Shown here: positions 62-27,098 of the stretch, piece by piece
Numbering within the stretch: position 1 is the stretch's first letter
How the letters are laid out: each line of letters begins with the position of its first letter
DNA from: a virus
Direction: 5' to 3' (one strand)
Virus genome (UHGV): UHGV-0126570
DNA: 59,916 nt
Notes under the pieces: model-generated
What the model was told of the DNA's origin: nothing
The model's input: only the letters and a program-made list of their open reading frames with translations
Database searches by the model: none
Program-made: the position numbers and the translations under genes

Positions 62-115
62 AATCCCTACCTATACCAACTATGTATTTTTAACTAAACA
101 AAGAGGATGTTTTTC

Positions 116-1100: not shown

Positions 1101-1224
1101 GCGAATGTATCCAATAAGCATATGTCTCCCTTGTATGCTAAGGATACGATTCTAGAAGATGTCCTGTAAGGAAATAACAAACTGACTAAGTTAGTGGCGC
1201 ATTAGATGTTATTTCTGGAGGGGT

Positions 1225-1551: not shown

Positions 1552-1997
1552 TGGGTAACTTTGGAAATTATTTCATTTTTATCATGGCATTTGTTGCCAT
1601 CATTGACCGTTTCATTTTTCGTCGCAAGAGTGTTGAGATTTTGAGTATTGGTGATGCTGTAGTGAAAGAATCCGCTATAGCATTTCCTGTTTCGCTACGT
1701 GTTAAGCGAAGCTGGGTCAGCAATGCTCAAATCGAATATTGGTTGCAAGACCTGAAAAATCCATCTGTGGTTATTTCAGGGAAAACGCGACCAGTTGACG
1801 CCTCAAAACGCGGTGAGAGAGAAGAGTATTTGCTCATCGATACGAAATATCTTGAGCCAACGAAGTGGGATCTGAAAGTCACATTGACTAACGGTAACTG
1901 CCGACTGAATCCGCTTTATCGCATTTTCCCTATCAATGACTGCATAGAGCGCCAGTTTACGATCGAAAAGCGTGAAGGAGACTGGGATGTCAAATAA
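1551..1997 (+). CDS. Membrane-anchored protein (N-terminal TM), possible holin partner/antiholin
   Basis: 148 aa; N-terminal hydrophobic segment NYFIFIMAFVAIIDRFIF; stop/start overlap with the upstream holin-like gene. Role is a positional guess. Confidence 0.35.
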   Translation: MGNFGNYFIFIMAFVAIIDRFIFRRKSVEILSIGDAVVKESAIAFPVSLRVKRSWVSNAQIEYWLQDLKNPSVVISGKTRPVDASKRGEREEYLLIDTKYLEPTKWDLKVTLTNGNCRLNPLYRIFPINDCIERQFTIEKREGDWDVK

Positions 1998-2607
1998 GAA
2001 TAATTATGTTCTTCTTAATTATGATGAGTTAAACGAAAAGGGGCTGGCAAAACTCGTCAAAGAAATCAGCAAAGGTGGTTACAAGATAGCGAGGGTGATC
2101 CCTGCCAGTAATGGCAGGAAGAAAGATGGGATCATGACGCGCACGTTTACCCTTATTGGTATTGATGAACAGACAATGGAAGTTCAGGTTAACGATACCG
2201 GTGATATATCTGGGATCAAACTGAATGGTAAAACAGTACCGTTCAAGCCAGTAAAAACAATGTCGGCTTTGGGGCAATCTCTTGCGGCTTTATTTAATCG
2301 CGGAGCAACTTCTTTCCAGAAGTCATTAGCTCGAAAACTTGCTCGTGCAGCAAAAAATATTGATGACGGAAATAAGAAGCGGCAGGGAGTTAAATCTAAC
2401 GCTCAGAAATTAGCTGAAGCGAAAGAATCACGTGATGCACTCCGTGAAGATATCGCTAATGCTAACGACAAACTGTCTAAACTCCAGAGCAAGTCAGACA
2501 AAGTAATGCAAGATACGGGTAACGTTAAAGCTGCCTTGTCTCAGGAAGTAGCTAAGACACGTGCTCTTAAAGAAGAAATCGCGCGCCTGGAGGATGAGCA
2601 TGATTAA
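1987..2607 (+). CDS. Hypothetical coiled-coil protein
   Basis: ORF in track from 1972 (GTG); ATG at 1987 preceded by AAGGAG at 1975-1980. C-terminal half is charged and heptad-rich. Confidence 0.5.
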   Translation: MSNKNNYVLLNYDELNEKGLAKLVKEISKGGYKIARVIPASNGRKKDGIMTRTFTLIGIDEQTMEVQVNDTGDISGIKLNGKTVPFKPVKTMSALGQSLAALFNRGATSFQKSLARKLARAAKNIDDGNKKRQGVKSNAQKLAEAKESRDALREDIANANDKLSKLQSKSDKVMQDTGNVKAALSQEVAKTRALKEEIARLEDEHD

Positions 2608-4537
2608 CAATCCTTTACGAATTAATATTCAGTCTACTTTTGCTGATACGATCCCCGGCTATATGCCAAGTCGCTGGTCTTCAGAAGAATTAAACGAAGA
2701 TGACCTGATTTTTGAGGCGGCGACCTTAGAAGATATTGAGCTTGCCTATATGGGCAATGAAATTCTGGTTGTGTCTGACGAAGCTATGTTTGAGTCCATA
2801 ACTACAACCAGAATTCGGTTAGCTCAAACAATGCGAGCTTTCGTCCGTGCGCTGAATCGTGGCCTGAATGGTACGAATATTATGGCAGGGACTGATGAAG
2901 CTGGGACCGATGAAAATGGACGTAATTGTATTGGTGGTGCGATTATCGGTCGTGTACGTCGGATAGCTAATATCCCTGTTTTGACCGCGCAGATACCGCT
3001 TACTGACGGGCAGAGTACAAGCATAATTTTCCACTCTCCAACAGCTGACGGGGCAAAAATAAAGAGTAACGACGAGCTTGTTGCATTTCAGTTTTTACTT
3101 AATAAGCGTAACGTAACTCACGTTGTCGCCCCGATTGGTGGGAGAGATGTTTCTTTAAGCCAGGTATGCCAGGCGCTATCTAATTTGATTGAGCGTAACA
3201 GCGAAAAATTTAAGAAAGCAAAAGAGCGCCAGGACAAAATGAAGGCAGATATTGAGAGTTATCTCAATGAAGCAGATAAACTGGCAGAAGAACGGTCAAT
3301 AATGATTGATCAGGTGGACGTTGCGCAACGTGGGCTGACTGAAAAGCGTGCTGCTCTTACGGAGATGCAAAAAAAACTTGATGCCCAGAAAGCCATCAAC
3401 GAGGAATTACAAGCAAAACGCGATAAATTGTTGTCTGCTAAAGGTGAAAAAACGAAAGAGCGAGCGTTTAGTGACCAGCTGCGACATGTAAAACATAATC
3501 TTGCCATTGACGGAAAAACAGTGCTGGATAATGGCGCTGAAGTTAATTATGTCACGTCCGGCAGTGACAATTTCGTTACGATAGTAGCACCTGAAGGTAA
3601 ATTCAGTATTGATGCCAGTGCTGTCAAAGGAGGCAGTTTGGCAGATGCTGCAACCAAATTACTTAAAGCCTACCGAGAGCATAACGCAGATAAATATAAA
3701 GTTGATGTGTTACCAGGCCAGCAGGAAGACCCCGAACCACCACAGACAGACCCCGAGACGAACCCAGTATCACAACCAGAGAGCCAGGATGTAGGTAAAT
3801 ACCACTATGCACTTCAATCTCGCCCGGCTGGTGTTGGTGCTGTGCCGGATGGAAATAAAGCCGTGCTTGATCGTCCTGACCAGGCTGATCAGTATTACGA
3901 ATATGCTCGTCACGGTATCATTACGTATGACCGTAAACTGACAGATGAAGAAGTCAGCCAGTACGAGTTGCTCTATCTTCCTGATGAAGATGAGCTGAAA
4001 GATTTTGCAGGCCAATTGGTTGTGTCCAGCATGTCGAAACATATTGATGGCTATGTAGACCTGTTTGGCAGTGACCTGAAAACATTCAAGGCGCAAGTGA
4101 AAATTCTTTTCCGCAAAGCGTTTCCAAACGTGGCGTATCCACTTGGTGATGGGGAGAACCTTTTCATTATGGACGTATATAACGCCCTTCAAAATCATTC
4201 AAACGAAGTAACGCCAGAGCCTGAATTAGCACCTGTAATTGAGCCAGAATCACACCCACAAACAGCACCAGAGCAACAGCCAACGCCGGAAGACGCTGAA
4301 GAAGCGGCAACTGAAGCTGATCAGGAAGCAGATAAAGCGTTGGAGTACCTTAAATCCGTCCCGGTGCAGTTTACATCTCGCGATCTGACGGTAATCAGTG
4401 CCGAACTTGACCATGTGCAGGAAGCTGCAAACGCTCTTATCAGTGCTGGTCGATACGACGAGAACGAATCAACGGTTGGCGCAGCAGTTGACTACCTGAT
4501 CAACATTCTGGCTGAAATTCAGCAGGGAGGTGCTTAA
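2600..4537 (+). CDS. Large hypothetical protein (645 aa), candidate virion-internal protein
   Basis: ATG at 2600 with GGAGG 6 nt upstream, overlapping the upstream stop (ATGATTAA). Central coiled-coil, acidic Pro/Glu-rich C-terminal linker. Size and operon context are compatible with a DarA-type head protein of P1-like phages; this is not verifiable by eye. Confidence 0.45.
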   Translation: MINNPLRINIQSTFADTIPGYMPSRWSSEELNEDDLIFEAATLEDIELAYMGNEILVVSDEAMFESITTTRIRLAQTMRAFVRALNRGLNGTNIMAGTDEAGTDENGRNCIGGAIIGRVRRIANIPVLTAQIPLTDGQSTSIIFHSPTADGAKIKSNDELVAFQFLLNKRNVTHVVAPIGGRDVSLSQVCQALSNLIERNSEKFKKAKERQDKMKADIESYLNEADKLAEERSIMIDQVDVAQRGLTEKRAALTEMQKKLDAQKAINEELQAKRDKLLSAKGEKTKERAFSDQLRHVKHNLAIDGKTVLDNGAEVNYVTSGSDNFVTIVAPEGKFSIDASAVKGGSLADAATKLLKAYREHNADKYKVDVLPGQQEDPEPPQTDPETNPVSQPESQDVGKYHYALQSRPAGVGAVPDGNKAVLDRPDQADQYYEYARHGIITYDRKLTDEEVSQYELLYLPDEDELKDFAGQLVVSSMSKHIDGYVDLFGSDLKTFKAQVKILFRKAFPNVAYPLGDGENLFIMDVYNALQNHSNEVTPEPELAPVIEPESHPQTAPEQQPTPEDAEEAATEADQEADKALEYLKSVPVQFTSRDLTVISAELDHVQEAANALISAGRYDENESTVGAAVDYLINILAEIQQGGA

Positions 4538-4911
4538 TGACTATCTCTGTTTTAGACCGTCTGAAATTGGGTAAAGAGCTATCAGATTTAATGCAGGCGC
4601 AGAAAACCGCGCCAGTATTACAACGCGTCGCCATTGGTAAGCAGATTGTTGATCTGATGCTTAAACTGGGGTTGGGTACTGCCGCTCAACCGATGTCGGA
4701 ACCGCAACCACAACCACAGTCTGATCCTGTTGCAGATGAAGTTCCTAAGATAGTGACTGACTTCCTGGGCGGCGTGTTCACAAAGTCCACACAAATGGAA
4801 TTTATTGATGCGCTGCGTGGGATCTCAAACTATGTTGGCGAGTTCCTTACGTTGGAGCAGGCTAAAGAACAGACCATAAGCTGGGTGAAAGCCAACGGTT
4901 ATGCCGGGTAA
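4537..4911 (+). CDS. Hypothetical protein (124 aa)
   Basis: ORF translationally coupled to the upstream gene; followed by a hairpin at 4916-4945. Confidence 0.5.
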   Translation: MTISVLDRLKLGKELSDLMQAQKTAPVLQRVAIGKQIVDLMLKLGLGTAAQPMSEPQPQPQSDPVADEVPKIVTDFLGGVFTKSTQMEFIDALRGISNYVGEFLTLEQAKEQTISWVKANGYAG

Positions 4912-4915
4912 TCAA

Positions 4916-4945
4916 AAGGGGGCGAAATGCCCCTTTCACTTCTCT
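4916..4945 (+). terminator. Putative intrinsic terminator / operon-internal hairpin
   Basis: AAGGGG-gcgaaatg-CCCCTT stem-loop followed by a T-rich tract, directly after the 4909-4911 stop. Confidence 0.35.
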
Positions 4946-5005
4946 GTTCTCACATAAATCACACTCTTTTTACACTCACAGCTTTCTCTATAGTTGGAGT
5001 GTATT

Positions 5006-6391
5006 TTGAACAAATCAGTTACTTCTGCGCTTTCCGAGGCCGCAGATATTAACAGCGTCATTGCTCTGGTTTCTTCATTAGAGAGGAAAGAAACACGCCT
5101 GGGGCGAAGTAGCTACGTAGTCACCAGCAAAGGTGCAGAGGTAAAGACGGCTTTTAAGGTCGTTGATGCCAGCAGTCTGATCATTTCGAACAACCTTGAC
5201 GGTATGATTAACCCGGCCTTCCCGGAAGAACTCCAACCACGAGATCGTACCCGGCTATCCAGCAAACTCCAGGTTAACCGCATTGCCTCCAATTTACGCC
5301 CGGCACAATTAACGGATTCCGGTATGAGCAGCCACGGAGCGCCGATAGTTGGTCCGGACAACGTTGTTGAATCCGGCAACGGAAGGAGTATGGGTATCTG
5401 GCGTGCCTATGAGCAAGGACAGGCGGATGAGTATCGCCAGTACCTGATCGACCATGCGAAAGAGTTTGGTCTGAATCCTGACGAAATTTCGCAAATGTCT
5501 ATGCCCGTACTAGTGCGAGAAAGACTCACAGATGTAGACCGCGCTCAATTTGCCCGCGATTCAAACATTAGCGATCTGCAAGAGATGGCAGCAAGTGAAA
5601 AAGCGTATGCGGATGCGCAATTTCTCACTGAGAGCGTCATGGCGCTATTTAATCCTTCAGATGATGGAAATCTGCTGGCGCGGTCCAATGATGCGTTTAT
5701 TCGTGCGTTTTTGCGCGAAATTGGCGATACAGCGACGGCAGGCTTGCTTACTGCCGATGGGCGTCCCACGAAACAGCTTATCGATCGCATCCAGAATGCA
5801 ATTTTTGCCAAAGCGTACAAGGATGAAAGGCTTGTTCGGCTAGTGTCCGAAGAGCCAGATCCGGAAATGCGTAATATCCTGACCGCATTAAATACGGCAG
5901 CCAGCGATTTTGCGCAAATGCAGTCGCTGTCTGGCGACGCTCACCATGACGCAGTAACAGGCTTAGTGGACGGTATAGAGCAGGTTAATGGCCTGGATAC
6001 ACAGGCGATAGCAGCACTCCAGGAAGCAATTAATCTTGTACGTGAAGCCAAAGACAACGGTCAGGCCGTTGAAGAAGTGATCGCCCAAAGGGGGTTATTC
6101 GGCGACAGTACACCGGAAGCTGAGGCATTGGCGCTATTCATCGTAGCAAATAATCGCAGTGCGAAGCGTATGGGGGCCGCATTCAAAAAAATGGCGCAAA
6201 AAATAAACGACGAGCTGACTCATAAACAACAGGCATTGGGCGATATGTTCGGCGGTGGCGATGTTGATCTGCGTCGTATTTTGTCTGCTGTATCTGATGA
6301 AATTGAGGGTGAATTTGGCGAAGGGAAAGGTCTGAACTTTGCTATGTTTGAAAATTCTACAGTTCTAAATAATTGCAGTATGGAAAACTAA
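5006..6391 (+). CDS. Hypothetical protein (~461 aa)
   Basis: ORF track starts at TTG 4994; in-frame TTG at 5006 has GGAG at 4996-4999. No recognisable motif. Confidence 0.45.
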   Translation: MNKSVTSALSEAADINSVIALVSSLERKETRLGRSSYVVTSKGAEVKTAFKVVDASSLIISNNLDGMINPAFPEELQPRDRTRLSSKLQVNRIASNLRPAQLTDSGMSSHGAPIVGPDNVVESGNGRSMGIWRAYEQGQADEYRQYLIDHAKEFGLNPDEISQMSMPVLVRERLTDVDRAQFARDSNISDLQEMAASEKAYADAQFLTESVMALFNPSDDGNLLARSNDAFIRAFLREIGDTATAGLLTADGRPTKQLIDRIQNAIFAKAYKDERLVRLVSEEPDPEMRNILTALNTAASDFAQMQSLSGDAHHDAVTGLVDGIEQVNGLDTQAIAALQEAINLVREAKDNGQAVEEVIAQRGLFGDSTPEAEALALFIVANNRSAKRMGAAFKKMAQKINDELTHKQQALGDMFGGGDVDLRRILSAVSDEIEGEFGEGKGLNFAMFENSTVLNNCSMEN

Positions 6392-6455
6392 GCCAACCGC
6401 TGAAATCACATACTGATTATGCTGCCGCAAAACTGGAAACAATTTGCGGTGATTC

Positions 6456-8138: not shown

Positions 8139-8151
8139 CCGGAGGGAAATA

Positions 8152-10951: not shown

Positions 10952-11658
10952 TGGATATCTGCATTCTCGAAAAGCCATCAATGACCAGCATTGAGATCGC
11001 GGAGCTGGTGGGAAAACGTCATGACAATGTGAAACGCACTATTGAGACATTAGCCAAAGGTGGCGTTATTGCTCGTCCTCAAATTGAGGTTTTCGAAAAA
11101 ATCAATAACTTAGGACTACGGCGTAGTGTTGAGGCTTACGTCTTCGAAGGCGAGCAAGGCAAGCGCGATAGCATTATCGTCGTCGCGCAGCTCTCTCCCG
11201 AATTCACTGCCCGGCTGGTGGACCGCTGGCGCGAACTGGAAGAACAAGTACGCCAGCCGTTGACCGAAATAGAGATGATCGCCGCAATGGCTGCAAATGC
11301 AGTTCAGCAGCAAAAGCGGCTTCATGCTGTTGAGTCAAAGGTTAGCCAGGTCGCTGAAACCGTCGAGCAAATCAAGAAAGGCAATATTCCGGAAGGCTAC
11401 ATTGGCTACCGCCAGCTGGCGGCGAAATGTGGCCTGACTGAAGCCAAATGTCGCAACCTGGTTAACGCTTACCGGATTCCCACCGATACACATGAGTTTT
11501 TAACTCCAGAGGGGGTATTGTCGCGTCGTTCCATCGTGGCCTTATCTCCCTTCATGAATGCTTTTAACCGGATGATGTCGGAGGCTGAACACCGAGGAAA
11601 ACGCTGGTATCACCCCAAAATGGGGCAATTCCAGGTGATCGGTTGGGGAGGTGAATGA
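10951..11658 (+). CDS. Rha-family phage regulatory protein (antirepressor-like), truncated relative to the paralog at 48090-49031
   Basis: N-terminal MTSIEIAELVGKRHDNVKRTIE is Rha-like; long stretches are near-identical at nucleotide level to the second copy (e.g. 11180-11240 vs 48320-48380). Confidence 0.55.
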   Translation: MDICILEKPSMTSIEIAELVGKRHDNVKRTIETLAKGGVIARPQIEVFEKINNLGLRRSVEAYVFEGEQGKRDSIIVVAQLSPEFTARLVDRWRELEEQVRQPLTEIEMIAAMAANAVQQQKRLHAVESKVSQVAETVEQIKKGNIPEGYIGYRQLAAKCGLTEAKCRNLVNAYRIPTDTHEFLTPEGVLSRRSIVALSPFMNAFNRMMSEAEHRGKRWYHPKMGQFQVIGWGGE

Positions 11659-11855
11659 TGGACATCATGCAAGCGGTAAAAAAAATCAGGGAAGAACAGG
11701 CTGAAGTGTGCCGCCGTAAAGCATGGAGTGTTGGTGTATGGGCCTGGCCTGATAATTACTCTACTACCGGATGGTTTTGTATTAATGGACTCCAGATCCG
11801 GGAAGTTTATTTATCGACGGCTGATATAGTCGGTAATGATTGGATCGTGACTTGA
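11655..11855 (+). CDS. Short ORF homologous to the C-terminus of the full-length Rha paralog (split gene fragment)
   Basis: EVCRRKAWSVGVWAWPDNY...DWIVT aligns with ...TVCRRSSWPEGIWVWPEGG...DWIVS at the end of the 48090-49031 product, so copy 1 appears interrupted. Confidence 0.45.
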   Translation: MMDIMQAVKKIREEQAEVCRRKAWSVGVWAWPDNYSTTGWFCINGLQIREVYLSTADIVGNDWIVT

Positions 11856-11887
11856 TGCGTGATGCCCCGGCCTGGCCGGGGCTTTTT

Positions 11888-12373
11888 TCATGCCTCATTA
11901 GTTGAGGTTGCTGCGTCTCCGACTGGTAACAGAGCGGTATTGCGTGGTTCGCCAGCAGGCCAGCGATAGCCAGACACTCTTGATGTTGGGAATGCGCGAA
12001 TATTAACCGCATCCCCCTGGTTCCCACCCAGGACAAGCAGATCGCCATTGGCGCGGCGTCCGACAACGAAGCCTACGTGCCCACCGCCTACGCGGGTAAA
12101 TACAACGATACATCCGTATGCCGGTGTATCTAATTTCTCGCCCCAATCCAGATAGGATTTTGCCGACTCAAATCTTGTTGAGCGGATGCCTACACGTTCC
12201 AGCATTGCACCGACAAATGCTGCGCACCACGGCGTTTCATCGTCTTTAATTCCGCCGCGCTTGATGTCGCGCCAGAACTGAACGATTTCAGGGTTGTGTT
12301 TAGCGCCTTTTATTTCAGTCAGGCCAATGTGCTTACGGGCTTCAATTAGCCAGCGAGGTTCAATGTTTGCCAT
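11888..12373 (-). CDS. NlpC/P60-type (CHAP-like) putative cell-wall hydrolase
   Basis: Cys in ETPWCAAFV and His in GGGHVGFVV with spacing typical of papain-like peptidoglycan peptidases (TIGR02594-like pattern). Confidence 0.5.
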   Translation of the reverse strand: MANIEPRWLIEARKHIGLTEIKGAKHNPEIVQFWRDIKRGGIKDDETPWCAAFVGAMLERVGIRSTRFESAKSYLDWGEKLDTPAYGCIVVFTRVGGGHVGFVVGRRANGDLLVLGGNQGDAVNIRAFPTSRVSGYRWPAGEPRNTALLPVGDAATSTNEA

Positions 12374-12448
12374 ATTTTTCTCTCGGTCATGGGTTAATAA
12401 GTAGGCAAACTATGGGGAGTATGTGATTTTGACGGTAGTATCGTCCCC

Positions 12449-15400
12449 GTGAAAATAACATTCTCCATACCCTCTCAACCGTACCGCATAGCGGATTTTT
12501 TACGGTTTAGAGGGGGTAATCCTTTGGATAAACTACTTCATTCAATCAGTGAAGCCTCCAGCTTAGGCGAACTGATTGAAATTGTTAGTCGGTTGCATAA
12601 ATTACGTGCTGTTGCGACCTTTGGCGTTAAGAAAGTCGATGGTGTCAGCATTCAAAAAACACGGCGGGCAGCAAACAACGCCGCAGTAGAGCTTCTTAAT
12701 TCCCTTCCGCCCGGCTTCGATGGGGCGAAATTAACTGACGAACAACGTCAGATTCTTTCCGGGTATACCGGTGAAGGCGGCCTGACAGATGGTGAGGGCA
12801 GCCAATACGAATACTACACACCACAGTTTATGGCTGAAGGTATATGGGATCTGTTTGCTGACTACGGTATTGATGGCGGGCACGTACTGGAACCATCAGC
12901 GGGCACAGGTATTTTCCAGGAGACAAAACGGCAGGGCATGATAATGACCAGCGCCGAACTATCTCCGATTTCCGGTCGAATAAACCAGCTTTTGCACCCG
13001 GAAGACGATGTGAATATCGGGGCGTTTGAGGCGCTGGCGGCGAAAGACGCAATGTATGACCACGCTGTTGGTAACGTACCGTTTGGTGAAGGGCGTTCCG
13101 GCGTTGCCGGGCTTGATCCGGCATATGCAAACGAGAAGAACGTTGGCAATTACTTTGTGCTGCGCACGATCGACAAGGTTAAGCCTGGTGGACTAATTGT
13201 ATTGGTGGTGCCGAATGGCATGACCGATGGTACGAAATACAAAAAATTGCGCGATAAAGTCAGCCGTAAAGCGGAATTTTTGGGCGCACATCGTATGCCT
13301 TCTGGTACGTTCAGCGAATCCGGTACAGATACAGTGGTGGACGTATGGGTATTGCGTAAACACCCGGAAACCTTCCTGGAGATGATCCCCGACACGGATG
13401 ATGCAACGCTCAAGTCGGCAAACGTCCTTTGGGATACCTTCCTCAAAGGGAAATGGTTTACAACCGAAGGGAAGCGATTTGTTTACGGCGATATGGAGCG
13501 TACCAGCTTCCGCAATACCCTGGTGGTGAAAAAGGACGGTCGTGTATCCAATGAGTCGATGAAAACCGCTCTATCGCGCCGCTTTGAAAGCCGCATTAAT
13601 TGGGATTTGCTTGGCGTAACTACTCAGGCATGGCAGGGCGCGAAAGTGGGCGATAAACGCCTTGTAGGCGGCATCTGGCATGAGTTTGATGGCCTGAAAT
13701 GGGTCAAGGACGCGACAACCAAATCCTCCGCGCTTGATGTAAATCGATATGGTGTTACGACGTTTGGTGATCTGCAGATCGCGTTTCAGTCAACAAATGG
13801 CATTCTGGCGTTGTCATGGGACCAGATATCAGCGATCGCGTCCGACTATCCGTCGGTTATCAGTGATGAAGTAGCGGCAATGATTCGCTTTGCTGGCAAG
13901 CAGAGAGAAAAAGATAGAGAACGCGTTATGCGCGGCGCACTGATAGGGCAGTTGATCAACAAGGCGCTTGATAAGCGTAATCTGGGGGAAAATGTTGATG
14001 ATGAACTTGCTGATGCCGCGCGCCTGGCGGAAGCCGAAATTGCGAAGTATGGTCCGCCGCACGCGATTAAGCTGAATGGGATTGCTGAAGCTGGCGCTAA
14101 AAACTGGATGACTTTCACTGGCAACGTGAAACAGGACGGCTCTGCTTCTGACCTCCTTGCTGGACGACTTGATGTAACGGATGGTGCTGCCGGTATTGAC
14201 TTTACACGCCCGGAACAAGTTGTAACCCACCTTTTCAGTGACGTGGCACTTAATCCAATCACACTGGACGATTTTCGTGAGGCGTTTGCTGGCGAACTGC
14301 CAGGAGACGACGATGCTGCTCTGGAATACCTGGCGAAATTTGATGATATCGCTATTGATGGGTATGGCTGCCTGCTGCCGATGGACCGCGCCACCAGCGG
14401 CGATATTGCAACCAAAACAGCATTGCTGGTGGGCTGGCGTGATGCGTCAACAGGTGAGCAGAAAGCGAACTTTGAGCGTCAGTTGGCGAAAATCGAAGAG
14501 AAACGCATTTTCACGCCACTAAATAAAGTCACCGTTAATCTGAACGCCCGCTGGCTGGATCGCCGCTTGATAAAAGAGTTCCTGGCAGAGCAGGGCTATG
14601 ACGAGTTTAAGTATACAGAACCCGACCTTAAGGTTGAGGACGGCATTCTGGTATCTCCGGACGATTACGAAGGTAAGGACGGGGTATTTACTGGCTATCA
14701 ACTACGAACCGTAAACGGCAAAAACGGGAATGAGTTCAAGAAGGCCAACAATAAAGACGGCTTCCTGAACCAGTTAGAAAACTACCTGAACGGCATTAAA
14801 CCGCGTGGGCAGAACGCTAACGAGTACCTGGATAAGATTGCTCAACTGGAAATTAGCTTCAACGACTGGTTACGCACTCACCCGCAGGCTGATCAGATAG
14901 CCCGCGACTATAACGACGCATTTAATGGCTTCATCCCGTTTACGCATTCTGACGCACCGCTTGGCCTGGAGGGGATTAGTGGGAAGCGCATTCCTCTGAC
15001 TTATCAGAATGAAGAAGTTCGTCGCTTATCAGAAGATGGGCGCGGCATCATGGGATTTGGCACCGGGCTGGGTAAAACCACGACCGCGCTTGCGCTTGAG
15101 GCGTATAACTTCGAAACAGGTCGCACTAAACGCACGTGTATTGTTGTTCCGAAGGCGGTTTATCAGAACTGGTATCACGAGGCACAGAGTTTCTACAGTG
15201 CTGATGCCTTCGCCAATATGATGTTTATCGGTTTGGATGAAGTTCGTGATGACAGCGGAAATATTCTGACCGCGCCGGTGCTTGATGAAAATGGCGAACC
15301 ACGCCTCGACAGTAACGGGCAGCCTCTTACCCGAAATGTTGTGAAAGAGTCCGCCAGCGCCGTTATCGTTCAGCGCATGAACATGATCCCGTCGTCAAAT

Positions 15401-18400
15401 TGGCGAACGGTCATCATGACAAAAGAGCAATTCGCGTCTATCCCGCTACGAGAAGAAACCATTGAGGAAAACTCACAGCAAGCGGTCTTTAATGCTGTGG
15501 AAATGGGGCGTCTTGACCTGGCATCTGGCAAACACCGTGACGCGCAGAAGAAGAATAAGATTAAGGACCAGGCCGCAAATACCGGTACAACGAAGAAGCA
15601 GAATATCCCGTACTTTGAGGATATGAACTTCGATAGCGTAATTGCCGACGAAGGGCATAACTACCGCAACTCCTTTAGCGCCGGGCGCGAAGCGGGGCAA
15701 CTGGCATATTTGCCTAACCCGGCAGTATCCAAAATGGCCCGCGACATGGCTGTAAAAGCTGCGTACATGATGAAACGCAACAACGGGCGTGGTGTGGTTA
15801 TGCTGACGGCAACACCGCTGGTGAACAGCCCGATTGATGCTTTCAACATGCTGTCTACTGTCATTCCGCAGGAAGAGTGGATGCGCATGGGTATTGTTAC
15901 GCCGGATGATTTCGTTCGCGTGTTCGGTAAAACAGCCACAGTTCAGGTTCAGAAAATTTCCGGTGAGGTGGAAGAGAAGCAGGGACTGGTGGGCTTCCAG
16001 AACCTGGATGGTCTGCGTGGTATTTTCCATCGCTGGACTACTCTGAAGACTGCTGCGGACGTCGGGGCGACGGTAAAAATCCCTGATATTGTCGAGAATA
16101 CCTTGCAGATCCCGATGACAGGAGAGCAAGAGGCCATTTACGAAGAACTTCGTAAGCGTGCACAGGAGTTAAGTAGTAAAGATGCGCTGACGGTCGATGA
16201 AAACGGGCATATCACAAACGAAAAACCGGATGATTTCATCTTCTCCATCATCCGCGACATGGATAAGGTTGCTATAGATCCTGATCTGTATGCCAGTGCG
16301 ATTACATTCCAGTTCCCCGTTGAGCTTGCAGACAAGGTAAAAGCTATTGCTGATGCCCTGCCAAAAGTAGCTGGCGGTAAAGTGGCAGATGATGCAGACG
16401 AGGCCGAAGAAGATGGCGCTGGTGGGCTGGCCAGTACGCGTACCAGCAAGGTAGTGAAGACCACCTTTAGCGAACATCCGTCGCATGTTGAAATACGTGC
16501 TGGCATTGAACTGGAAGCTGAAATACTGAAGGCCATTGCGGCTGCCGGTATTGATATGCAGCAGGTATCACACCCCATCCCGCCGAAGTATGCCGCGCTG
16601 ATCGAAAACCTTCGTGAAGGTCTGAAGAACGGTAAACAAATCGTCTTCATTGATGAAAAAGCCCAGCACCAGAAGCTGCGCCGTATTATTGCCAGTGCAC
16701 TGCAAATGCCGGAGCAGGAGATAGGCATTATCAATGCGACGACAGTTAGCCAGGCTGGCGGCGTCAAGCTGAAGAAGGTGAATAAGCCGACTGAACCTAC
16801 GCCAAATAAAAACGGTGAATACAAAGAAGGTGCATGGGAAACCTACTACAGTAAACTTGCCCAATATGAGGATTATCTCTCAGCTAAAAATGATGCTGGC
16901 CTTGAGGGCATGGAAGGTATTGCCGCCGACTATAACGAAGGTCGCACGCGCATCATAATCTGTAACAAGAAGGCTGAAGTAGGTATTAACTTGCACATCG
17001 GTACAACCGATATCCACCATCTGACACTACCCTGGACTCCTGCCAGTATCGACCAACGTAATGGGCGCGGCGCTCGGGTAGGCTCACCACAAGAAAAGGT
17101 CAATGTTCACTACTATTGTGGCAAAGGCACATTTGATGACTTCCGTCTGGATACGCTGAAACGTAAGAAGGACTGGATCAATATGGTGATGACCTCCGAC
17201 ATGTCAGAGATCGCCAATGGTGATGCGGATGACGCAGATGAACGCGCCATTATGCTGGCGGCAAATCCGGAAGAACGCCGTGCAATCATGAGTCGTCAGG
17301 CGCAAGAGCGTGAAGAACGTCTGAAACTGAAAGCCCTACGCGAAGCCAATAATGCTCTCGATAACTACCTGAAAGCGGCGAATGCTGCCGGGAAAGATAT
17401 CGGCATGATGGAGACAGAACTGAAAAGCGCGATGGAGCAGGTAGAGCATTACCAGCGCAATCTTGACGGCCTGATTAAAGCGGGGACGAACAGGAACGGG
17501 CAGAAATATGTTCTGGAACAGTTGCGAGACTACAGAAAACGTGTGCGGGAGCTACGCTTTGCGATCACCAGAGCTAAAGACGCTGACACCGTTATGAAAC
17601 GTTCTCGTGGTGATCTGGAACGTGCGATTAAAGCCGGGGTTCTGGAGCTTGATGCCGATGTATTGCAGAACCCACAGGAGTATGTACGCACTGAGAAAAA
17701 TATCTTGTTGCACAAGGGCAGCCATTATCGCGCGATCATCGATGAGAATCACAATACGACAGCAATTGTTCGTGTTACCGCCATTGATGCGGAAAGGGGC
17801 GGGTGTACGTGCCGCATATCCTGGCTGGATGTGGCTAGTCGTTACTCTCGTTCTCCGGGGACGGCATTATTTTTGCCCTTTAACCTGATAATTGAATCGG
17901 TAACCTTTGAAGAGGGAGTTGCAGAATCGCGTGAAACAGCTGCACGTGGTGTTCAATGCCACCAGCTATCAACAACACTTACGCGCGATCAGTTCTATGA
18001 TGCTATTCGCAATGGGGTAATGAATGTCACTGCCGGGAAGCCTGGTAGAGTATGGGGCGGTGGTTCAGCTATTAAATACTGGGCTTATCGCACCGATGAT
18101 GGTCAGATTGCACTGTCATCGGCTTATGATGGCGTAATAGGTCAAAAAATCGGGCGAGCATCGGATATAGCGCCTGAGCGGTGGATTTACCCTGATGGCA
18201 ACGATGAGGCGCTGAAGCGTGAAGTGGCAAAAATACAAGCCAGTGATAACCCGCTGAATGTCGTGGACGGCGAGGGATTCCTCCAGGCATTGTATGGATA
18301 TGATTACATCCAGGGAATGCAGGCATGGGGGGCACAGGCCACGATGGATGATGTTTCCCAGGAGTTTGAAAACTGGATGGCAGGGCGTGGTTTGTCCGGT

Positions 18401-19363
18401 CGCTCACTTAATAAAGTTACTTCTGAAGATATTCTTAGCCTGTTCCGTAAACCGTCCGGAGAAGGGCTGGAATCTTTCTGGAAGACCGTGGTGGCATACC
18501 GTTTATTCCAGGGCAGGATGAAAGCCTTTAGCAACACTGATGACATTGAACGGATGTTTAATCAGGTGAAGGCCGCGAAAATTACGGCGAAAATTGAGAA
18601 AACACGAGCTGCGCTGGTGGCCTGGCGCGATGCATTGTTTGAGCAATATAAATCACTCAGCGATGCCGATGGCTGGTCGGCATTGGAGCAGCTGGCTAAT
18701 AATGGTGTCGATGGAGCGAAATTAGCCATTGTTCAGGCCGATAATCCTCTGGATTCGCCAGCAGCGCAGTGGATTAAGGTGGGGGCTGTCATCAATGCAT
18801 TTGATGAAAAACACATTAGTAAGGACGATTTTGCTGATGCTGTTTCCATTAACCGCCTGGTAGAAATGGCTGTCCGCCGTGCTCGTGCTTTGAAAGACGG
18901 GGACTATGTGAATGAGTTACCAGATGCGCTCAAATCGGCAACGTGGCAAGACTATGTATCGCTGAAAAACGGCGGAGCCACCGAATCAGAGATCGCAGAA
19001 AGACTTGAGCAGGCTGAAAGCAAAAGAGAAGAGCAGGCGGCAGTGGCAGAAGCCAGAGCTGAAGAAGCTGCGAACGATGATTATATCATTGTGGTTAATG
19101 ATAAGCCGATTCGCGCTAAAGCCCGTGTTCGCGGGCGCTGGTGGAGTGTCAGTGAAGATGTGGGAGCCGTTTATCTCATTGCCGATCAGCCCGGTTCCTC
19201 GACAATACGGAACGCCAAGGACGCGATTAAGAAGATTGGCGGGCGTTTCTGGAATTTTGAAGCAAACCCGGTTGCTGATGTGAACTTTGACCGTCCGGCA
19301 TGGATGGTATCTACGCGTTACTCGGTAGATGAACTGCGTAAAATAATCGCCGATGCGGCCTAA
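12449..19363 (+). CDS. darB: DarB-like giant antirestriction protein (N6-adenine methyltransferase fused to SF2 helicase)
   Basis: 2304 aa. MTase motif I (VLEPSAGTGIF) and motif IV-like (GNVPFGEG); helicase Walker A (GFGTGLGKTTT), DExH box (VIADEGHNY) and motif VI (QRNGRGAR). Size and domain order match P1 DarB. GTG start. Confidence 0.85.
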   Translation: MKITFSIPSQPYRIADFLRFRGGNPLDKLLHSISEASSLGELIEIVSRLHKLRAVATFGVKKVDGVSIQKTRRAANNAAVELLNSLPPGFDGAKLTDEQRQILSGYTGEGGLTDGEGSQYEYYTPQFMAEGIWDLFADYGIDGGHVLEPSAGTGIFQETKRQGMIMTSAELSPISGRINQLLHPEDDVNIGAFEALAAKDAMYDHAVGNVPFGEGRSGVAGLDPAYANEKNVGNYFVLRTIDKVKPGGLIVLVVPNGMTDGTKYKKLRDKVSRKAEFLGAHRMPSGTFSESGTDTVVDVWVLRKHPETFLEMIPDTDDATLKSANVLWDTFLKGKWFTTEGKRFVYGDMERTSFRNTLVVKKDGRVSNESMKTALSRRFESRINWDLLGVTTQAWQGAKVGDKRLVGGIWHEFDGLKWVKDATTKSSALDVNRYGVTTFGDLQIAFQSTNGILALSWDQISAIASDYPSVISDEVAAMIRFAGKQREKDRERVMRGALIGQLINKALDKRNLGENVDDELADAARLAEAEIAKYGPPHAIKLNGIAEAGAKNWMTFTGNVKQDGSASDLLAGRLDVTDGAAGIDFTRPEQVVTHLFSDVALNPITLDDFREAFAGELPGDDDAALEYLAKFDDIAIDGYGCLLPMDRATSGDIATKTALLVGWRDASTGEQKANFERQLAKIEEKRIFTPLNKVTVNLNARWLDRRLIKEFLAEQGYDEFKYTEPDLKVEDGILVSPDDYEGKDGVFTGYQLRTVNGKNGNEFKKANNKDGFLNQLENYLNGIKPRGQNANEYLDKIAQLEISFNDWLRTHPQADQIARDYNDAFNGFIPFTHSDAPLGLEGISGKRIPLTYQNEEVRRLSEDGRGIMGFGTGLGKTTTALALEAYNFETGRTKRTCIVVPKAVYQNWYHEAQSFYSADAFANMMFIGLDEVRDDSGNILTAPVLDENGEPRLDSNGQPLTRNVVKESASAVIVQRMNMIPSSNWRTVIMTKEQFASIPLREETIEENSQQAVFNAVEMGRLDLASGKHRDAQKKNKIKDQAANTGTTKKQNIPYFEDMNFDSVIADEGHNYRNSFSAGREAGQLAYLPNPAVSKMARDMAVKAAYMMKRNNGRGVVMLTATPLVNSPIDAFNMLSTVIPQEEWMRMGIVTPDDFVRVFGKTATVQVQKISGEVEEKQGLVGFQNLDGLRGIFHRWTTLKTAADVGATVKIPDIVENTLQIPMTGEQEAIYEELRKRAQELSSKDALTVDENGHITNEKPDDFIFSIIRDMDKVAIDPDLYASAITFQFPVELADKVKAIADALPKVAGGKVADDADEAEEDGAGGLASTRTSKVVKTTFSEHPSHVEIRAGIELEAEILKAIAAAGIDMQQVSHPIPPKYAALIENLREGLKNGKQIVFIDEKAQHQKLRRIIASALQMPEQEIGIINATTVSQAGGVKLKKVNKPTEPTPNKNGEYKEGAWETYYSKLAQYEDYLSAKNDAGLEGMEGIAADYNEGRTRIIICNKKAEVGINLHIGTTDIHHLTLPWTPASIDQRNGRGARVGSPQEKVNVHYYCGKGTFDDFRLDTLKRKKDWINMVMTSDMSEIANGDADDADERAIMLAANPEERRAIMSRQAQEREERLKLKALREANNALDNYLKAANAAGKDIGMMETELKSAMEQVEHYQRNLDGLIKAGTNRNGQKYVLEQLRDYRKRVRELRFAITRAKDADTVMKRSRGDLERAIKAGVLELDADVLQNPQEYVRTEKNILLHKGSHYRAIIDENHNTTAIVRVTAIDAERGGCTCRISWLDVASRYSRSPGTALFLPFNLIIESVTFEEGVAESRETAARGVQCHQLSTTLTRDQFYDAIRNGVMNVTAGKPGRVWGGGSAIKYWAYRTDDGQIALSSAYDGVIGQKIGRASDIAPERWIYPDGNDEALKREVAKIQASDNPLNVVDGEGFLQALYGYDYIQGMQAWGAQATMDDVSQEFENWMAGRGLSGRSLNKVTSEDILSLFRKPSGEGLESFWKTVVAYRLFQGRMKAFSNTDDIERMFNQVKAAKITAKIEKTRAALVAWRDALFEQYKSLSDADGWSALEQLANNGVDGAKLAIVQADNPLDSPAAQWIKVGAVINAFDEKHISKDDFADAVSINRLVEMAVRRARALKDGDYVNELPDALKSATWQDYVSLKNGGATESEIAERLEQAESKREEQAAVAEARAEEAANDDYIIVVNDKPIRAKARVRGRWWSVSEDVGAVYLIADQPGSSTIRNAKDAIKKIGGRFWNFEANPVADVNFDRPAWMVSTRYSVDELRKIIADAA

Positions 19364-19399
19364 CAGATAAGGAGCGGCCCCAACCGGGGCCGAATTTGA

Positions 19400-19834
19400 A
19401 TGACGACACTAATTGACACTGTAAAACCGACGGAATCCTACCTTGAGGAAATCTTGCCGCAGGCACTCAATGGCAGGAGTGAAGAAGAATACCTGACAGT
19501 TTATCTTGATGGCATGGTAGAAAGGCTGAAGAAAAATCCACAGCTTTATCACCTTTATGGTCCGTGGTGGCCCGCGCTCAAAACGATATTGCTGGAGCGC
19601 GGCGACATATCATTTGGACAAGTTGTAGATAGTGATGTGGCAGAGATCTACAAAATGAGTCGCCCGGCGCTTACGGTTTTGGCTGGGCATCTGTATTCGA
19701 GCGATCGCCTGGAAAATGACGCGGTATACAATCCCGTTCATGCTCTGGAAGTCGCACCTTATGCTGATGATACAGAGCCATACGTGTACACAAGTTACGA
19801 CGAGTCAATAGAGAAATATCGAATCATGGGGTAG
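19400..19834 (+). CDS. Hypothetical protein (144 aa)
   Basis: ORF after darB, ATG start; no recognisable motif. Confidence 0.45.
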   Translation: MTTLIDTVKPTESYLEEILPQALNGRSEEEYLTVYLDGMVERLKKNPQLYHLYGPWWPALKTILLERGDISFGQVVDSDVAEIYKMSRPALTVLAGHLYSSDRLENDAVYNPVHALEVAPYADDTEPYVYTSYDESIEKYRIMG

Positions 19835-19836
19835 CC

Positions 19837-20097
19837 ATGCGAAAGAATCGTAGGTTTACGGTCGAAGACCTAAAGGAATATTCCATATCGAAGGGGTATG
19901 TCCTTGAGTTTCACCGTTACAAGAAGGTTTTTACGCTGCGAAAAGCAGAAAACCCAGCGAGCTGGAGCTGGGTATACTTCCCTCATACAGAAGACAAACT
20001 GGTAGAGCTTGTTGATGATTTAACCTATGAAGGGTGGTTGATCGCAATCGACAAGACAATCACAGAAATATCCGAACCGGATAAAATAAACCTTTAA
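19837..20097 (+). CDS. Hypothetical protein (86 aa)
   Basis: ORF starting 3 nt after the previous stop. Confidence 0.4.
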   Translation: MRKNRRFTVEDLKEYSISKGYVLEFHRYKKVFTLRKAENPASWSWVYFPHTEDKLVELVDDLTYEGWLIAIDKTITEISEPDKINL

Positions 20098-27020: not shown

Positions 27021-27098
27021 TAACCAACTTTTTGCCAGTCTATACAGAAATAACATTCTCATTATCATCCCCTCGGTCATTTCCTGCCCGGGGGATTA

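What the first reader, a model, noticed from the sequence alone, without database searches (positions are those of the whole stretch)
11888..19363. DarB-like 2304-aa methyltransferase-helicase with a divergent NlpC/P60 gene upstream
The giant ORF carries N6-adenine MTase motifs followed by SF2 helicase motifs, the architecture of the P1 antirestriction protein DarB. The gene immediately upstream on the other strand is an NlpC/P60-type hydrolase rather than a same-strand small partner gene, and the neighbouring genes differ from P1 order, so the packaging partners may differ.
Basis: partly seen in the sequence, partly recalled or inferred. Interest (0 to 1): 0.4.

Follow-up and report, generated by a model that had tools for sequence, protein, structure and literature searches.

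The report
D6-type phage DarB antirestriction gene block
This is the already annotated darB–ulx antirestriction gene pair of a common D6-like (P1-family) phage-plasmid of E. coli, and the small gene facing it is most likely the phage's cell-wall-cutting lysis enzyme, so the finding is real but ordinary.

Summary
Both ORFs exist where stated. The window is a D6-like P1-family phage-plasmid: 93% nt identity to Escherichia phage D6, 99.3% to several E. coli plasmids, and the block is present in 93 of 5,426 complete E. coli genomes.

The giant ORF is a full-length, colinear DarB homologue: 95% aa identity to D6 orf15 and about 41% to P1 DarB, with all methyltransferase and SF2 helicase motifs intact. 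Its real start is most likely TTG 12524, giving 2,279 aa rather than 2,304.

A ulx homologue (48% to P1 Ulx) lies immediately downstream on the same strand at 19400-19834, exactly as in P1. The hdf, darA, ddrA and ddrB homologues are also in the window. The inference that packaging partners differ is therefore largely unsupported. The real differences are a half-length DdrB and a strongly diverged DarB C-terminal third.

The divergent 161-aa gene is a CHAP/TIGR02594 papain-fold peptidoglycan hydrolase, 100% identical to D6 orf16. Close homologues occupy the endolysin slot of holin–endolysin–spanin cassettes, and D6 has no P1 Lyz homologue. It is therefore most likely the endolysin, not a Dar component.

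Both genes carry back-to-back copies of a D6-lineage late-promoter-like motif.

The parts
11864..11882 (.). GC-rich hairpin with a T-run between the convergent orf17-like gene (+) and the CHAP gene (-). It is a terminator-like element.
   Evidence: The terminator scan finds 8 GC pairs followed by TTTTTT; the sequence is.
11888..12373 (-). 161-aa CHAP/TIGR02594 papain-fold peptidoglycan hydrolase, the candidate endolysin of the D6 lineage.
   Evidence: Pfam CHAP 31.4 bits and TIGR02594 143 bits. It is 100% identical to D6 orf16. C50, H99 and N118 are invariant in 40 homologues. The AF2 model (pLDDT 84.6) matches NlpC/P60 endopeptidases. Homologues sit in holin-X-Rz cassettes.
12417..12429 (-). 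Late-promoter-like box AAATCACATACTC, 44 nt upstream of the CHAP start and followed by CATAGT.
   Evidence: Motif search. The same box occupies the same position in D6, Raoultella and JGI relatives.
12453..12473 (+). Late-promoter-like box plus -10-like hexamer for darB: AAATAACATTCTCCA-TACCCT.
   Evidence: Motif search. It stands out as a conserved footprint in otherwise diverged intergenic DNA. Compare P1 late promoters, AAGTGACTT-N4-TAnnnT.
12470..12514 (+). darB leader hairpin. The core is 12477-12507; the possible extension CCCUCU/AGAGGG overlaps the Shine-Dalgarno.
   Evidence: MFE -28.2 kcal/mol, z = -5.1. Pairing is kept with different stem sequences in diverged relatives, with 5 of 16 pairs compensatory.
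12524..19363 (+). darB homologue, 2,279 aa from the TTG start (the maximal ORF starts at GTG 12449).
   Evidence: PHROG 1685 matches full length.
12524..12613 (+). First 30 codons of darB, the position of the P1 DarB capsid-targeting sequence. Here 9/30 residues are identical to P1.
   Evidence: Alignment. The P1 capsid-targeting sequence is defined experimentally in PMC9024508.
12776..13453 (+). EcoKI/TaqI-like N6-adenine methyltransferase domain: YYTP, motif I EPSAGTG (aa 123) and motif IV NVPF (aa 184).
   Evidence: Pfam N6_Mtase. Weak PDB sequence hit to a type I methyltransferase subunit, 7eew. Motifs; 50-55% identity to P1.
14999..17203 (+). SNF2-type SF2 helicase/translocase: GLGKTT (aa 848), DEGH (aa 1042), TATP (aa 1095) and QRNGRGAR (aa 1511), with a long insert between the two RecA lobes.
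   Evidence: Pfam SNF2-rel_dom, ResIII and Helicase_C. Motifs and 45-68% identity to P1.
17324..19360 (+). C-terminal about 680 aa of DarB, function unknown. It is only 18-25% identical to P1 but still colinear.
   Evidence: E = 2e-9 and 1e-3. Only 27 representatives exist in 1.84 billion proteins; all six hits longer than 1,000 aa (1,648-2,302 aa) match at or near their C-terminus and the rest are shorter fragments.
19369..19392 (+). AAGGAG followed by a 7-bp GC hairpin in the darB-ulx junction, 7 nt before the ulx ATG.
   Evidence: Sequence. P1 has the same layout with a different stem sequence.
19400..19834 (+). ulx homologue, 144 aa, annotated 'olxA' in RefSeq plasmids.
   Evidence: 48% identity to P1 Ulx, E = 3e-46. 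PHROG 1629 'Ulx-like anti-restriction', 4.9e-59. D6 orf14.
19837..20097 (+). 86-aa gene (D6 orf13) in the position of P1 lxc but unrelated to it. Function unknown.
   Evidence: No alignment to P1 Lxc. PHROG 6844, unknown function. The position is conserved in L011 and L012.
1972..6391 (+). The rest of the Dar system. ORF limits are hdf 1972-2607, darA 2561-4537, ddrA 4537-4911 and ddrB 4994-6391; exact starts were not determined. ddrB has the ParB-like domain only (465 aa against 995 aa in P1).
   Evidence: tblastn with P1 proteins. Pfam DarA_N, DarA_C and ddrB-ParB.

Best explanation
The region is the darB-ulx module of a D6-like, P1-family phage-plasmid, plus the lineage's endolysin gene pointing the other way.

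**DarB (12524-19363).**
- It is a 2,279-aa virion-packaged antirestriction protein.
- It is made late in infection.
- It is recruited into the procapsid through its N-terminal about 30 residues, after Hdf/DarA, DdrA, DdrB and Ulx. All of these are encoded in the window.
- It is ejected with the DNA and protects that DNA in cis against type I restriction (EcoK/EcoB type in P1).
- The most likely mechanism is that its SNF2-type motor tracks along the entering duplex. The fused EcoKI/TaqI-like adenine methyltransferase then modifies the DNA, or at least occupies it, and so denies it to the restriction complex.

**The divergent 161-aa CHAP/TIGR02594 protein (11888-12373).**
- It is a cytoplasmic Cys-His peptidoglycan amidase/endopeptidase that serves as the phage endolysin.
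- It would be released to the wall by the LydA holin.
- It functionally replaces the P1 Lyz lysozyme, which this lineage lacks.

**Status of each step.**
- Shown here: homology, domain and motif content, gene order, presence of all partner genes, absence of a Lyz homologue, and the shared promoter-like motif.
- Inferred from P1 experiments: virion packaging, cis protection and the order of assembly.
- Hypothesis even for P1: methylation coupled to translocation.
For: **DarB identity**
- 95% aa identity to D6 orf15, which is annotated 'similar to P1 darB'.
- 40-41% identity to P1 DarB from end to end, with the domain order and every methyltransferase and helicase motif conserved.
- A full-length PHROG match.

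**Partner genes**
- ulx lies immediately downstream, as in P1.
- hdf, darA, ddrA and ddrB are present with their diagnostic Pfam domains.

**P1 biology, from the literature**
- Six Dar proteins are in the head; DarB is present at about 40 copies and is added last.
- Protection against EcoB/EcoK acts in cis only.
- Sources: PMC9024508, PMC12810830 and PMC12707154.
- The coupling of methyltransferase and SNF2 motor is proposed in PMC5512222.

**Late expression**
- The motif AAATMACATWCTS occurs 8 times in the window against 0.85 expected; none of 100 shuffles reached 8.
- Five of the eight sites (lydA, prt, the CHAP gene, darB, lpa) lie 39-59 nt upstream of the ORF start. The mat and gene-7 sites also precede their genes, and one site (33990) lies inside the dUTPase-like ORF.
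- In D6 it also precedes the tail-fibre (R-S-U) and pmgB-sit operons.
- It is conserved as a footprint in diverged relatives.

**Endolysin reading of the CHAP gene**
- CHAP and TIGR02594 scores are above their cut-offs.
- C50, H99 and N118 are invariant.
- The predicted structure has an NlpC/P60-like fold.
- Homologues at 72% and 69% identity sit between the holin and Rz genes in Aeromonas phage PCAh2 and Klebsiella phage BUCT711.
- The protein is about 50% identical to the CHAP domain of Lysqdvp001, whose isolated domain lyses Vibrio.
- Neither the window nor the whole D6 genome has a homologue of P1 Lyz, LydD or LydE.
- Among 20 further D6 hypothetical proteins none has a wall-hydrolase domain. 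D6 annotates only orf16 and the tail protein Sit as wall hydrolases.
Against: - No experiment on D6-lineage Dar proteins was found; the D6 genome paper could not be read.
- The first 30 DarB residues are only 30% identical to the P1 capsid-targeting sequence.
- DdrB lacks its C-terminal half.
- The C-terminal 680 aa of DarB are only 18-25% identical to P1, so specificity and assembly details may differ.
- Methyltransferase and ATPase activities have not been demonstrated for any DarB, as far as the papers read here show.
- The CHAP gene lies 10 kb from lydA/lydB rather than in a lysis cassette.
- PHROG 1259, which the CHAP protein matches, is labelled 'baseplate hub subunit and tail lysozyme'; the match falls on the C-terminal end of an 1,179-position profile.
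- The late-promoter assignment rests on sequence pattern and position only.
Confidence: 0.85

Rival explanations
1. The CHAP protein is a virion-borne, ejected wall-degrading enzyme. It would work at entry together with the Dar proteins, as a split version of the polyvalent head proteins that fuse methyltransferase-helicase modules with wall hydrolases, and would not be the endolysin.
For: - It sits back-to-back with darB, and both carry the same late-promoter-like motif.
- The adjacency is conserved in 25 of 33 IMG/VR loci and in Raoultella and JGI relatives.
- PHROG 1259 places this domain at the C-terminus of an 1,179-position 'baseplate hub/tail lysozyme' profile.
- Polyvalent injected proteins often carry peptidoglycan-degrading domains (PMC5512222).
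Against: - It is a stand-alone 161-aa protein with no capsid-targeting-like extension.
- Its closest non-D6 homologues occupy the endolysin slot of holin-endolysin-spanin cassettes.
- D6 already has a Sit tail transglycosylase for entry.
- D6 would otherwise have no endolysin at all.
- DarB relatives at 69-74% identity lack the neighbouring CHAP gene, so the link is not obligatory.
Confidence: 0.1
2. DarB protects by coating the DNA or by stalling or evicting type I enzymes. Its methyltransferase fold would serve only as a DNA- or SAM-binding module, so no methylation of the incoming DNA is involved.
For: - Reviews describe Dar as possible physical shielding, and cis-only action fits this (PMC12707154).
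- About 40 copies per virion cannot methylate every site quickly (PMC9024508).
- No DarB methylation activity is reported in the papers read.
Against: - Motif I (EPSAGTG), motif IV (NVPF) and the YYTP element are perfectly conserved between lineages that are only about 41% identical overall. This argues for selection on catalysis.
- The methyltransferase-SNF2 dyad is conserved across many polyvalent proteins (PMC5512222).
Confidence: 0.3
3. The giant protein is a plasmid-borne defence or restriction-type enzyme (DISARM DrmD-like, Dpd-like or type ISP-like) that acts for the lysogen, not a virion antirestriction protein.
For: NCBIfam gives partial hits to DrmD, DpdE and a PLD anti-phage protein over the helicase C-lobe.
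Against: - Those hits score 26-44 bits against cut-offs of 500-1,100 and cover only the generic helicase lobe.
- No nuclease domain was found.
- Homology to P1 DarB runs the full length.
- The gene is embedded among late and morphogenetic genes, with a late-promoter-like motif and ulx downstream.
Confidence: 0.02

Closest known systems
Escherichia phage D6 orf16 / orf15 / orf14 (MF356679, NC_050154) and D6-like E. coli and Salmonella phage-plasmids
   Same: - Same genes in the same order and orientation.
- DarB is 95% aa identical, the CHAP protein 100% and the DNA 93%.
- Several RefSeq plasmids are 99.3% identical over the block.
- The TTG start, promoter-like motifs and leader hairpin are the same.
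   Different: Differences are point substitutions and a 1-nt indel in the darB leader. Elsewhere, the window lacks D6 orf23/orf24 between ddrB and prt; this is inferred from coordinates.
Phage P1 DarB-Ulx, part of the six-protein Dar antirestriction system
   Same: - Same architecture: N-terminal targeting region, EcoKI/TaqI-like adenine methyltransferase, SNF2-type helicase and a long C-terminal region.
- All catalytic motifs are identical.
- ulx lies immediately downstream after an SD-hairpin junction.
- hdf-darA-ddrA-ddrB follow lydA-lydB.
   Different: - Overall identity is about 41%.
- The C-terminal 680 aa are only 18-25% identical.
- The targeting sequence is 9/30 identical.
- DdrB is half length.
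- lxc is replaced by an unrelated 86-aa gene.
- The divergent upstream neighbour is the CHAP gene rather than prt-pro.
- The promoter box is AAATMACA... rather than the P1 AAGTGACTT, and P1 lacks the leader hairpin.
TIGR02594/CHAP endolysins of Gram-negative phages (for example the Lysqdvp001 CHAP domain, and cassette endolysins of Aeromonas phage PCAh2 and Klebsiella phage BUCT711)
   Same: They share the 155-165-aa single-domain layout, the PWCAAFV and GGHVGFV catalytic motifs, and 50-72% identity.
   Different: Here the gene is not next to the holin; it stands alone on the opposite strand between the ant operon and darB. Lysqdvp001 has an extra N-terminal peptidoglycan-binding domain.
P1 Lyz (gp17, the P1 endolysin)
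   Same: Presumed same role: a late-expressed endolysin of a P1-family phage. P1 lyz has its own late promoter, LPlyz.
   Different: It is not homologous. No Lyz, LydD or LydE homologue exists in the window or in D6. The chemistry also differs: a Cys-His peptidase/amidase fold here, whereas Lyz is, from general knowledge, a lysozyme-type muramidase.
Methyltransferase-SNF2 'dyad' of polyvalent injected proteins (Iyer et al. 2017)
   Same: Same fused pair of EcoKI/TaqI-like adenine methyltransferase and SWI2/SNF2 ATPase, with the N-terminal TP motif.
   Different: Those proteins are often much larger (PHROG 10089, a profile of 4,647 positions) and carry extra effector domains. This one has only the DarB-specific C-terminal region.

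Membership tests
DarB (P1-type antirestriction methyltransferase-helicase) | Full-length colinear homology to P1 DarB | tested here: met
   BLASTP gives 944/2370 identities, E = 0, from residue 1 to the C-terminus. A MAFFT profile shows 41% overall identity. The C-terminal part alone is still significant, E = 2e-9.
DarB (P1-type antirestriction methyltransferase-helicase) | N-terminal EcoKI/TaqI-like N6-adenine methyltransferase with the TP motif, motif I and motif IV (NPPY-type) | tested here: met
   YYTP, EPSAGTG (aa 123) and NVPF (aa 184) are identical to P1. Pfam N6_Mtase scores 20.2 bits against a cut-off of 20.4, which is borderline. PDB sequence hit to a type I methyltransferase subunit, 7eew.
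DarB (P1-type antirestriction methyltransferase-helicase) | SF2/SNF2 helicase motifs I, II (DEGH), III and VI, C-terminal to the methyltransferase | tested here: met
   Pfam SNF2-rel_dom 51.1 bits, ResIII and Helicase_C, all above cut-off. The motifs are located.
DarB (P1-type antirestriction methyltransferase-helicase) | Genomic association with ulx and with the hdf-darA-ddrA-ddrB operon | tested here: met
   ulx is directly downstream. hdf, darA, ddrA and ddrB lie at 1972-6391.
DarB (P1-type antirestriction methyltransferase-helicase) | Packaging into the capsid through an N-terminal targeting sequence | not testable with these tools
   The position is conserved, but only 9/30 residues are identical to the P1 targeting sequence (PMC9024508).
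DarB (P1-type antirestriction methyltransferase-helicase) | Cis protection of ejected DNA against type I (EcoK/EcoB) restriction | not testable with these tools
   This is known only for P1.
NlpC/P60 - CHAP papain-fold peptidoglycan hydrolases | Match to the family profile above its curated threshold | tested here: met
   CHAP PF05257 scores 31.4 bits against 26, and TIGR02594 scores 143.3 against 70.55. The Pfam NLPC_P60 model itself did not appear at E <= 0.01. Membership is therefore in the CHAP/TIGR02594 branch, not NlpC/P60 in the strict sense.
NlpC/P60 - CHAP papain-fold peptidoglycan hydrolases | Conserved catalytic Cys and His, plus a third polar residue | tested here: met
   C50, H99 and N118 are invariant in a 40-sequence alignment.
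NlpC/P60 - CHAP papain-fold peptidoglycan hydrolases | Papain-like alpha+beta fold | tested here: met
   AF2 model with pLDDT 84.6 and pTM 0.86. Top Foldseek PDB hits are 4xcm (NlpC/P60 D,L-endopeptidase), MepS, LytE and CHAP-K, with probability 0.99-1.0 and TM 0.42-0.55.
Phage endolysin (functional class) | Encoded in or next to the holin/spanin lysis cassette | tested here: not met
   lydA/lydB lie at 1225-1997, 10 kb away. Homologues at 69-72% identity are inside such cassettes in other phages.
Phage endolysin (functional class) | The only soluble muralytic enzyme of the phage | tested here: inconclusive
   There is no P1 Lyz homologue in the window or in complete D6. No other hydrolase domain was found in 20 D6 hypothetical proteins. 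Not every small ORF was scanned, and the window covers only about 60 of about 90 kb.
Phage endolysin (functional class) | Muralytic activity and a lysis defect on deletion | not testable with these tools
   Activity has been shown only for the related Lysqdvp001 CHAP domain (PMC9180635).

The most novel reading that the evidence does not exclude
The D6-lineage Dar system may be a functionally re-tuned variant rather than a copy of the P1 system. Four features point that way: the DarB C-terminal 680 aa are almost unrelated in sequence to P1, the capsid-targeting sequence has diverged, DdrB lacks its C-terminal half, and darB carries a lineage-specific late promoter with a conserved leader hairpin. 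Together these could give a different spectrum of defeated host defences (other type I families or BREX) and an extra layer of translational or mRNA-stability control on DarB dosage.
Probability: 0.2. Interest if true: 0.35.

Novelty: already known. Interest (0 to 1): 0.1.

Why it matters
It matters little as a discovery. The genes are annotated in phage D6 and in over a hundred near-identical plasmids.

The check is still useful in four ways:
- It corrects the gene start.
- It shows the Dar system is complete in this lineage.
- It assigns the 'odd' divergent gene to lysis rather than antirestriction.
- It points to the D6 lineage as a natural comparison set for which parts of DarB (conserved enzymatic core versus fast-evolving C-terminus and targeting peptide) determine specificity and packaging.

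D6-like phage-plasmids are frequent in E. coli and Salmonella, so their antirestriction load is relevant to transduction and plasmid spread.

Tried and rejected
- **P1-type late promoter.** I searched for AAGT[GT]A[CT]T-N3-6-TAnnnT upstream of darB and the CHAP gene and found none. The window has a single copy, at 51571 on the minus strand.
- **The 13-nt motif as a C1 operator.** Rejected. It precedes lydA, prt, the tail-fibre operon, sit, gene 7 and mat, which are late operons in P1, and it is absent from the c1 upstream region.
- **orf13 (19837-20097) as an Lxc homologue.** No similarity.
- **PDB sequence searches.** Nothing for the CHAP protein, and only a weak type I methyltransferase hit for DarB.
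- **Word-indexed search with the DarB C-terminus.** It returned only 12 close fragments, too shallow for structure prediction, so I did not model the C-terminal region.
- **Defence-system reading (DrmD, DpdE).** Rejected because scores are far below the cut-offs.
- **Papers that could not be read.** The D6 genome paper, Piya et al. 2017 and Lobocka et al. 2004 were not available.


Full report
**Observation**

The ORF table confirms a 161-aa ORF on the minus strand (11888..12373). It also confirms a 2,304-aa ORF on the plus strand (12449..19363, from a GTG).

Pfam places N6_Mtase, then SNF2-rel_dom/ResIII, then Helicase_C along the large protein. It places a CHAP domain in the small one.

**Where the window comes from**

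- Region 11500-19900 is 93.2% identical over its whole length to Escherichia phage D6, a P1-like plasmid prophage. P1, P7 and SJ46 match only over about 170 nt inside the methyltransferase region.
- In PLSDB, 113 plasmids hold at least 80% of the region, and the best are 99.3% identical. They are about 90-kb non-mobilizable E. coli plasmids.
- 93 of 5,426 complete E. coli genomes carry the block, almost always on a plasmid.
- The D6 records annotate the three genes as orf16 'putative peptidoglycan hydrolase', orf15 'similar to P1 gene darB' and orf14 'similar to P1 gene ulx'.
- RefSeq plasmids call them 'TIGR02594 family protein', 'SNF2-related protein' and 'olxA'.

**Gene start**

The 2,304-aa figure is the maximal ORF. 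Four things point to TTG 12524, which gives a 2,279-aa protein:
- A strong Shine-Dalgarno (GAGGGGG, 12510-12516) lies 7 nt upstream of it.
- P1 DarB Met1 and the D6 start align to that codon.
- RefSeq annotates the same start.
- D6 has an extra base upstream that shifts the frame of the 25-codon extension.

**DarB membership**

- The protein is 95% identical to D6 orf15. It aligns with P1 DarB from the first residue to the C-terminus (944 identities over 2,370 columns).
- A per-100-residue profile shows 40-68% identity through the methyltransferase and helicase parts (aa 1-1600). Identity is only 18-25% in the last 680 residues.
- That last part is still colinear and significant when compared alone (E = 2e-9 and 1e-3).
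- YYTP, EPSAGTG, NVPF, GLGKTT, DEGH, TATP and QRNGRGAR are identical in both proteins.
- PHROGs places the D6 type in its own full-length family (phrog_1685). The P1-type family matches only to about residue 1473.
- An exhaustive HMMER search with the C-terminal 680 aa found only 27 representatives among 1.84 billion proteins. All six hits longer than 1,000 aa (1,648-2,302 aa) match at or near their C-terminus, and the rest are shorter fragments. This region was therefore seen only in DarB-sized proteins and is narrowly distributed.

**The partner genes**

In P1 the order is darB, ulx, lxc on one strand, with prt-pro diverging upstream. In the window a 144-aa ORF at 19400..19834 follows darB after 36 nt. 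It is 48% identical to P1 Ulx (E = 3e-46) and matches PHROG 'Ulx-like anti-restriction'.

tblastn with the P1 proteins also finds the following, in the order lydA, lydB, hdf, darA, ddrA, ddrB, prt, pro at 1225-9150:
- LydA, 43%
- LydB, 34%
- Hdf, 40%
- DarA, 38%
- DdrA, 33%
- DdrB, 64%, N-terminal 442 residues only
- Prt, 50%
- Pro, 42%

Pfam confirms DarA_N/DarA_C and ddrB-ParB.

According to P1 work, all six Dar proteins are head components. Hdf and DarA come first and DarB last, and Ulx and DdrB aid DarB incorporation. The first 30 residues of DarB suffice for capsid targeting (PMC9024508; PMC12810830).

The idea that this phage lacks the small partner, or uses other partners, is therefore not supported. 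Three things do differ:
- DdrB is 465 aa instead of 995 and keeps only the ParB-like part.
- The DarB targeting region is 9/30 identical to P1.
- The gene after ulx is unrelated to lxc.

**The divergent gene**

- The 161-aa protein is 100% identical to D6 orf16. It passes the CHAP and TIGR02594 thresholds.
- 5,641 database proteins match at E <= 1e-10. In a 40-sequence alignment C50, H99 and N118 are invariant.
- An AlphaFold model (pLDDT 84.6, pTM 0.86) finds NlpC/P60 D,L-endopeptidases (4xcm, MepS, LytE) and CHAP-K as best PDB matches. 'NlpC/P60-type' is therefore right at fold level.
- 543 phage records encode homologues.
- The 72%-identical protein of Aeromonas phage PCAh2 lies between 'lysis protein S' and 'Rz'. 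The 69%-identical one of Klebsiella phage BUCT711 lies between two holins and a DUF2514 (Rz-like) gene.
- The CHAP domain of the Vibrio endolysin Lysqdvp001 (about 50% identical, sharing the GGHVGFV peptide) is lytic on its own.
- P1 Lyz, LydD and LydE have no homologue in the window or anywhere in D6. D6 annotates no other lysin apart from the tail protein Sit. Twenty further D6 hypothetical proteins show no wall-hydrolase domain.
- The simplest reading is that this gene is the endolysin of the D6 lineage.
- Its adjacency to darB holds within the D6 clade: 25 of 33 IMG/VR loci, plus a Raoultella plasmid and a JGI contig. It is absent upstream of the 69-74% identical DarB relatives. That argues against an obligatory functional link.

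**Regulation (inference)**

- The 150-bp region between the two genes holds two opposed copies of a 13-nt motif: 12417-12429 on the minus strand and 12453-12465 on the plus strand.
- With one mismatch allowed, AAATMACATWCTS occurs 8 times in the window against 0.85 expected; none of 100 shuffles reached 8.
- Five of the eight sites (lydA, prt, the CHAP gene, darB, lpa) lie 39-59 nt before the ORF start. The mat and gene-7 sites also precede their genes, and the eighth site (33990) lies inside the dUTPase-like ORF.
- In D6 it also precedes the R-S-U tail-fibre operon and pmgB-sit.
- A TAnnnT hexamer usually follows about 6 nt later. This resembles the P1 Lpa-dependent late promoters (AAGTGACTT-N4-TAnnnT) but with a different box.
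- In the Raoultella and JGI relatives the surrounding intergenic DNA has diverged while the box and hexamer are kept.
- I therefore read it as the D6-type late promoter. Both darB and the CHAP gene would then be late genes, as expected for a head protein and an endolysin.

**Mechanism**

By homology with P1, DarB would be loaded into procapsids and ejected with the DNA. It would protect that DNA in cis from type I enzymes.

How it protects is unproven even for P1. The conserved methyltransferase and SNF2 motifs favour translocation-coupled adenine methylation, as proposed for the methyltransferase-helicase dyad (PMC5512222). Physical shielding remains a live rival.

**Verdict**

The finding is a correct recognition of a DarB homologue. 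The gene block is already annotated, very common and syntenic with P1 where it matters. The supposed peculiarity, a missing same-strand partner, comes from overlooking ulx downstream. Novelty: already known. Interest: low.

Noticed in passing
window 1172-1184, 6403-6415, 12417-12429(-), 12453-12465, 27048-27060, 33990-34002, 50547-50559, 54026-54038; D6 loci L001 and L004: The 13-nt motif AAATMACATWCTS, usually followed about 6 nt later by TAnnnT, marks the upstream regions of lydA, prt, the CHAP gene, darB, lpa, mat and gene 7. In D6 it also marks the tail-fibre and sit operons. It looks like a D6-lineage late-promoter box distinct from the P1 box AAGTGACTT.
   Followed up: partly
window 12470-12514 (+): A stable two-tier hairpin lies in the darB leader (-28.2 kcal/mol, z = -5.1). 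Its outer extension pairs CCCUCU with the Shine-Dalgarno. The stems differ in sequence but stay paired in diverged D6-like loci, with 5 of 16 pairs compensatory in 7 leaders. P1 has no equivalent. Whether it acts as an mRNA 5'-end stabiliser or a translational mask is unresolved.
   Followed up: partly
window 19369-19399; P1 locus L003 13308-13341: The darB-ulx junction has an AAGGAG, then a 7-bp GC hairpin, then the ulx ATG 7 nt later. P1 has the same layout with a different stem sequence. It may bring the Shine-Dalgarno close to the start codon or attenuate ulx expression.
   Followed up: no
window 4994-6391 (+): The DdrB homologue is 465 aa against 995 aa in P1. It keeps the ddrB-ParB domain (64% identity) but lacks the whole C-terminal half, which the literature describes as a metallopeptidase.
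   Followed up: partly
window 6391-6456 versus D6 L001 5812-6957: D6 orf24 (DUF4145) and orf23, which lie between ddrB and prt, appear to be absent from the window. The gap is 65 nt here against about 1.1 kb in D6. This is inferred from coordinates only.
   Followed up: no
window 26023-26598 (+) and 34280-34957 (+): Two proteins carry a Tad2-like (Thoeris anti-defense 2) domain, with E = 1.5e-9 and 1.8e-22. They are further candidate anti-defence genes on the same element.
   Followed up: no
window 51571 (-): The only exact P1-type late-promoter sequence in the window, AAGTGACTTTCATTAATCT, lies in the mat / gene 26 intergenic region and points away from both.
   Followed up: no
window 107-688 (+): A Cin-like resolvase/invertase lies on the same strand as lydA, with a 537-nt gap to it. 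In D6 cin is on the opposite strand, 106 nt from lydA. The invertible-segment border may be arranged differently.
   Followed up: no
locus L012 14700-16439 and 9610-9888: A JGI D6-like contig carries a group II intron-type reverse transcriptase (RVT_N, RVT_1, GIIM, HNH) between ddrB and prt, and an extra 92-aa gene between the CHAP gene and darB.
   Followed up: no
window 12429-12456 (+): A sigma-70-like promoter (TTGACG-16-GAAAAT) overlaps the darB late-promoter-like box. A transcript starting there would include the anti-Shine-Dalgarno arm of the leader hairpin.
   Followed up: no
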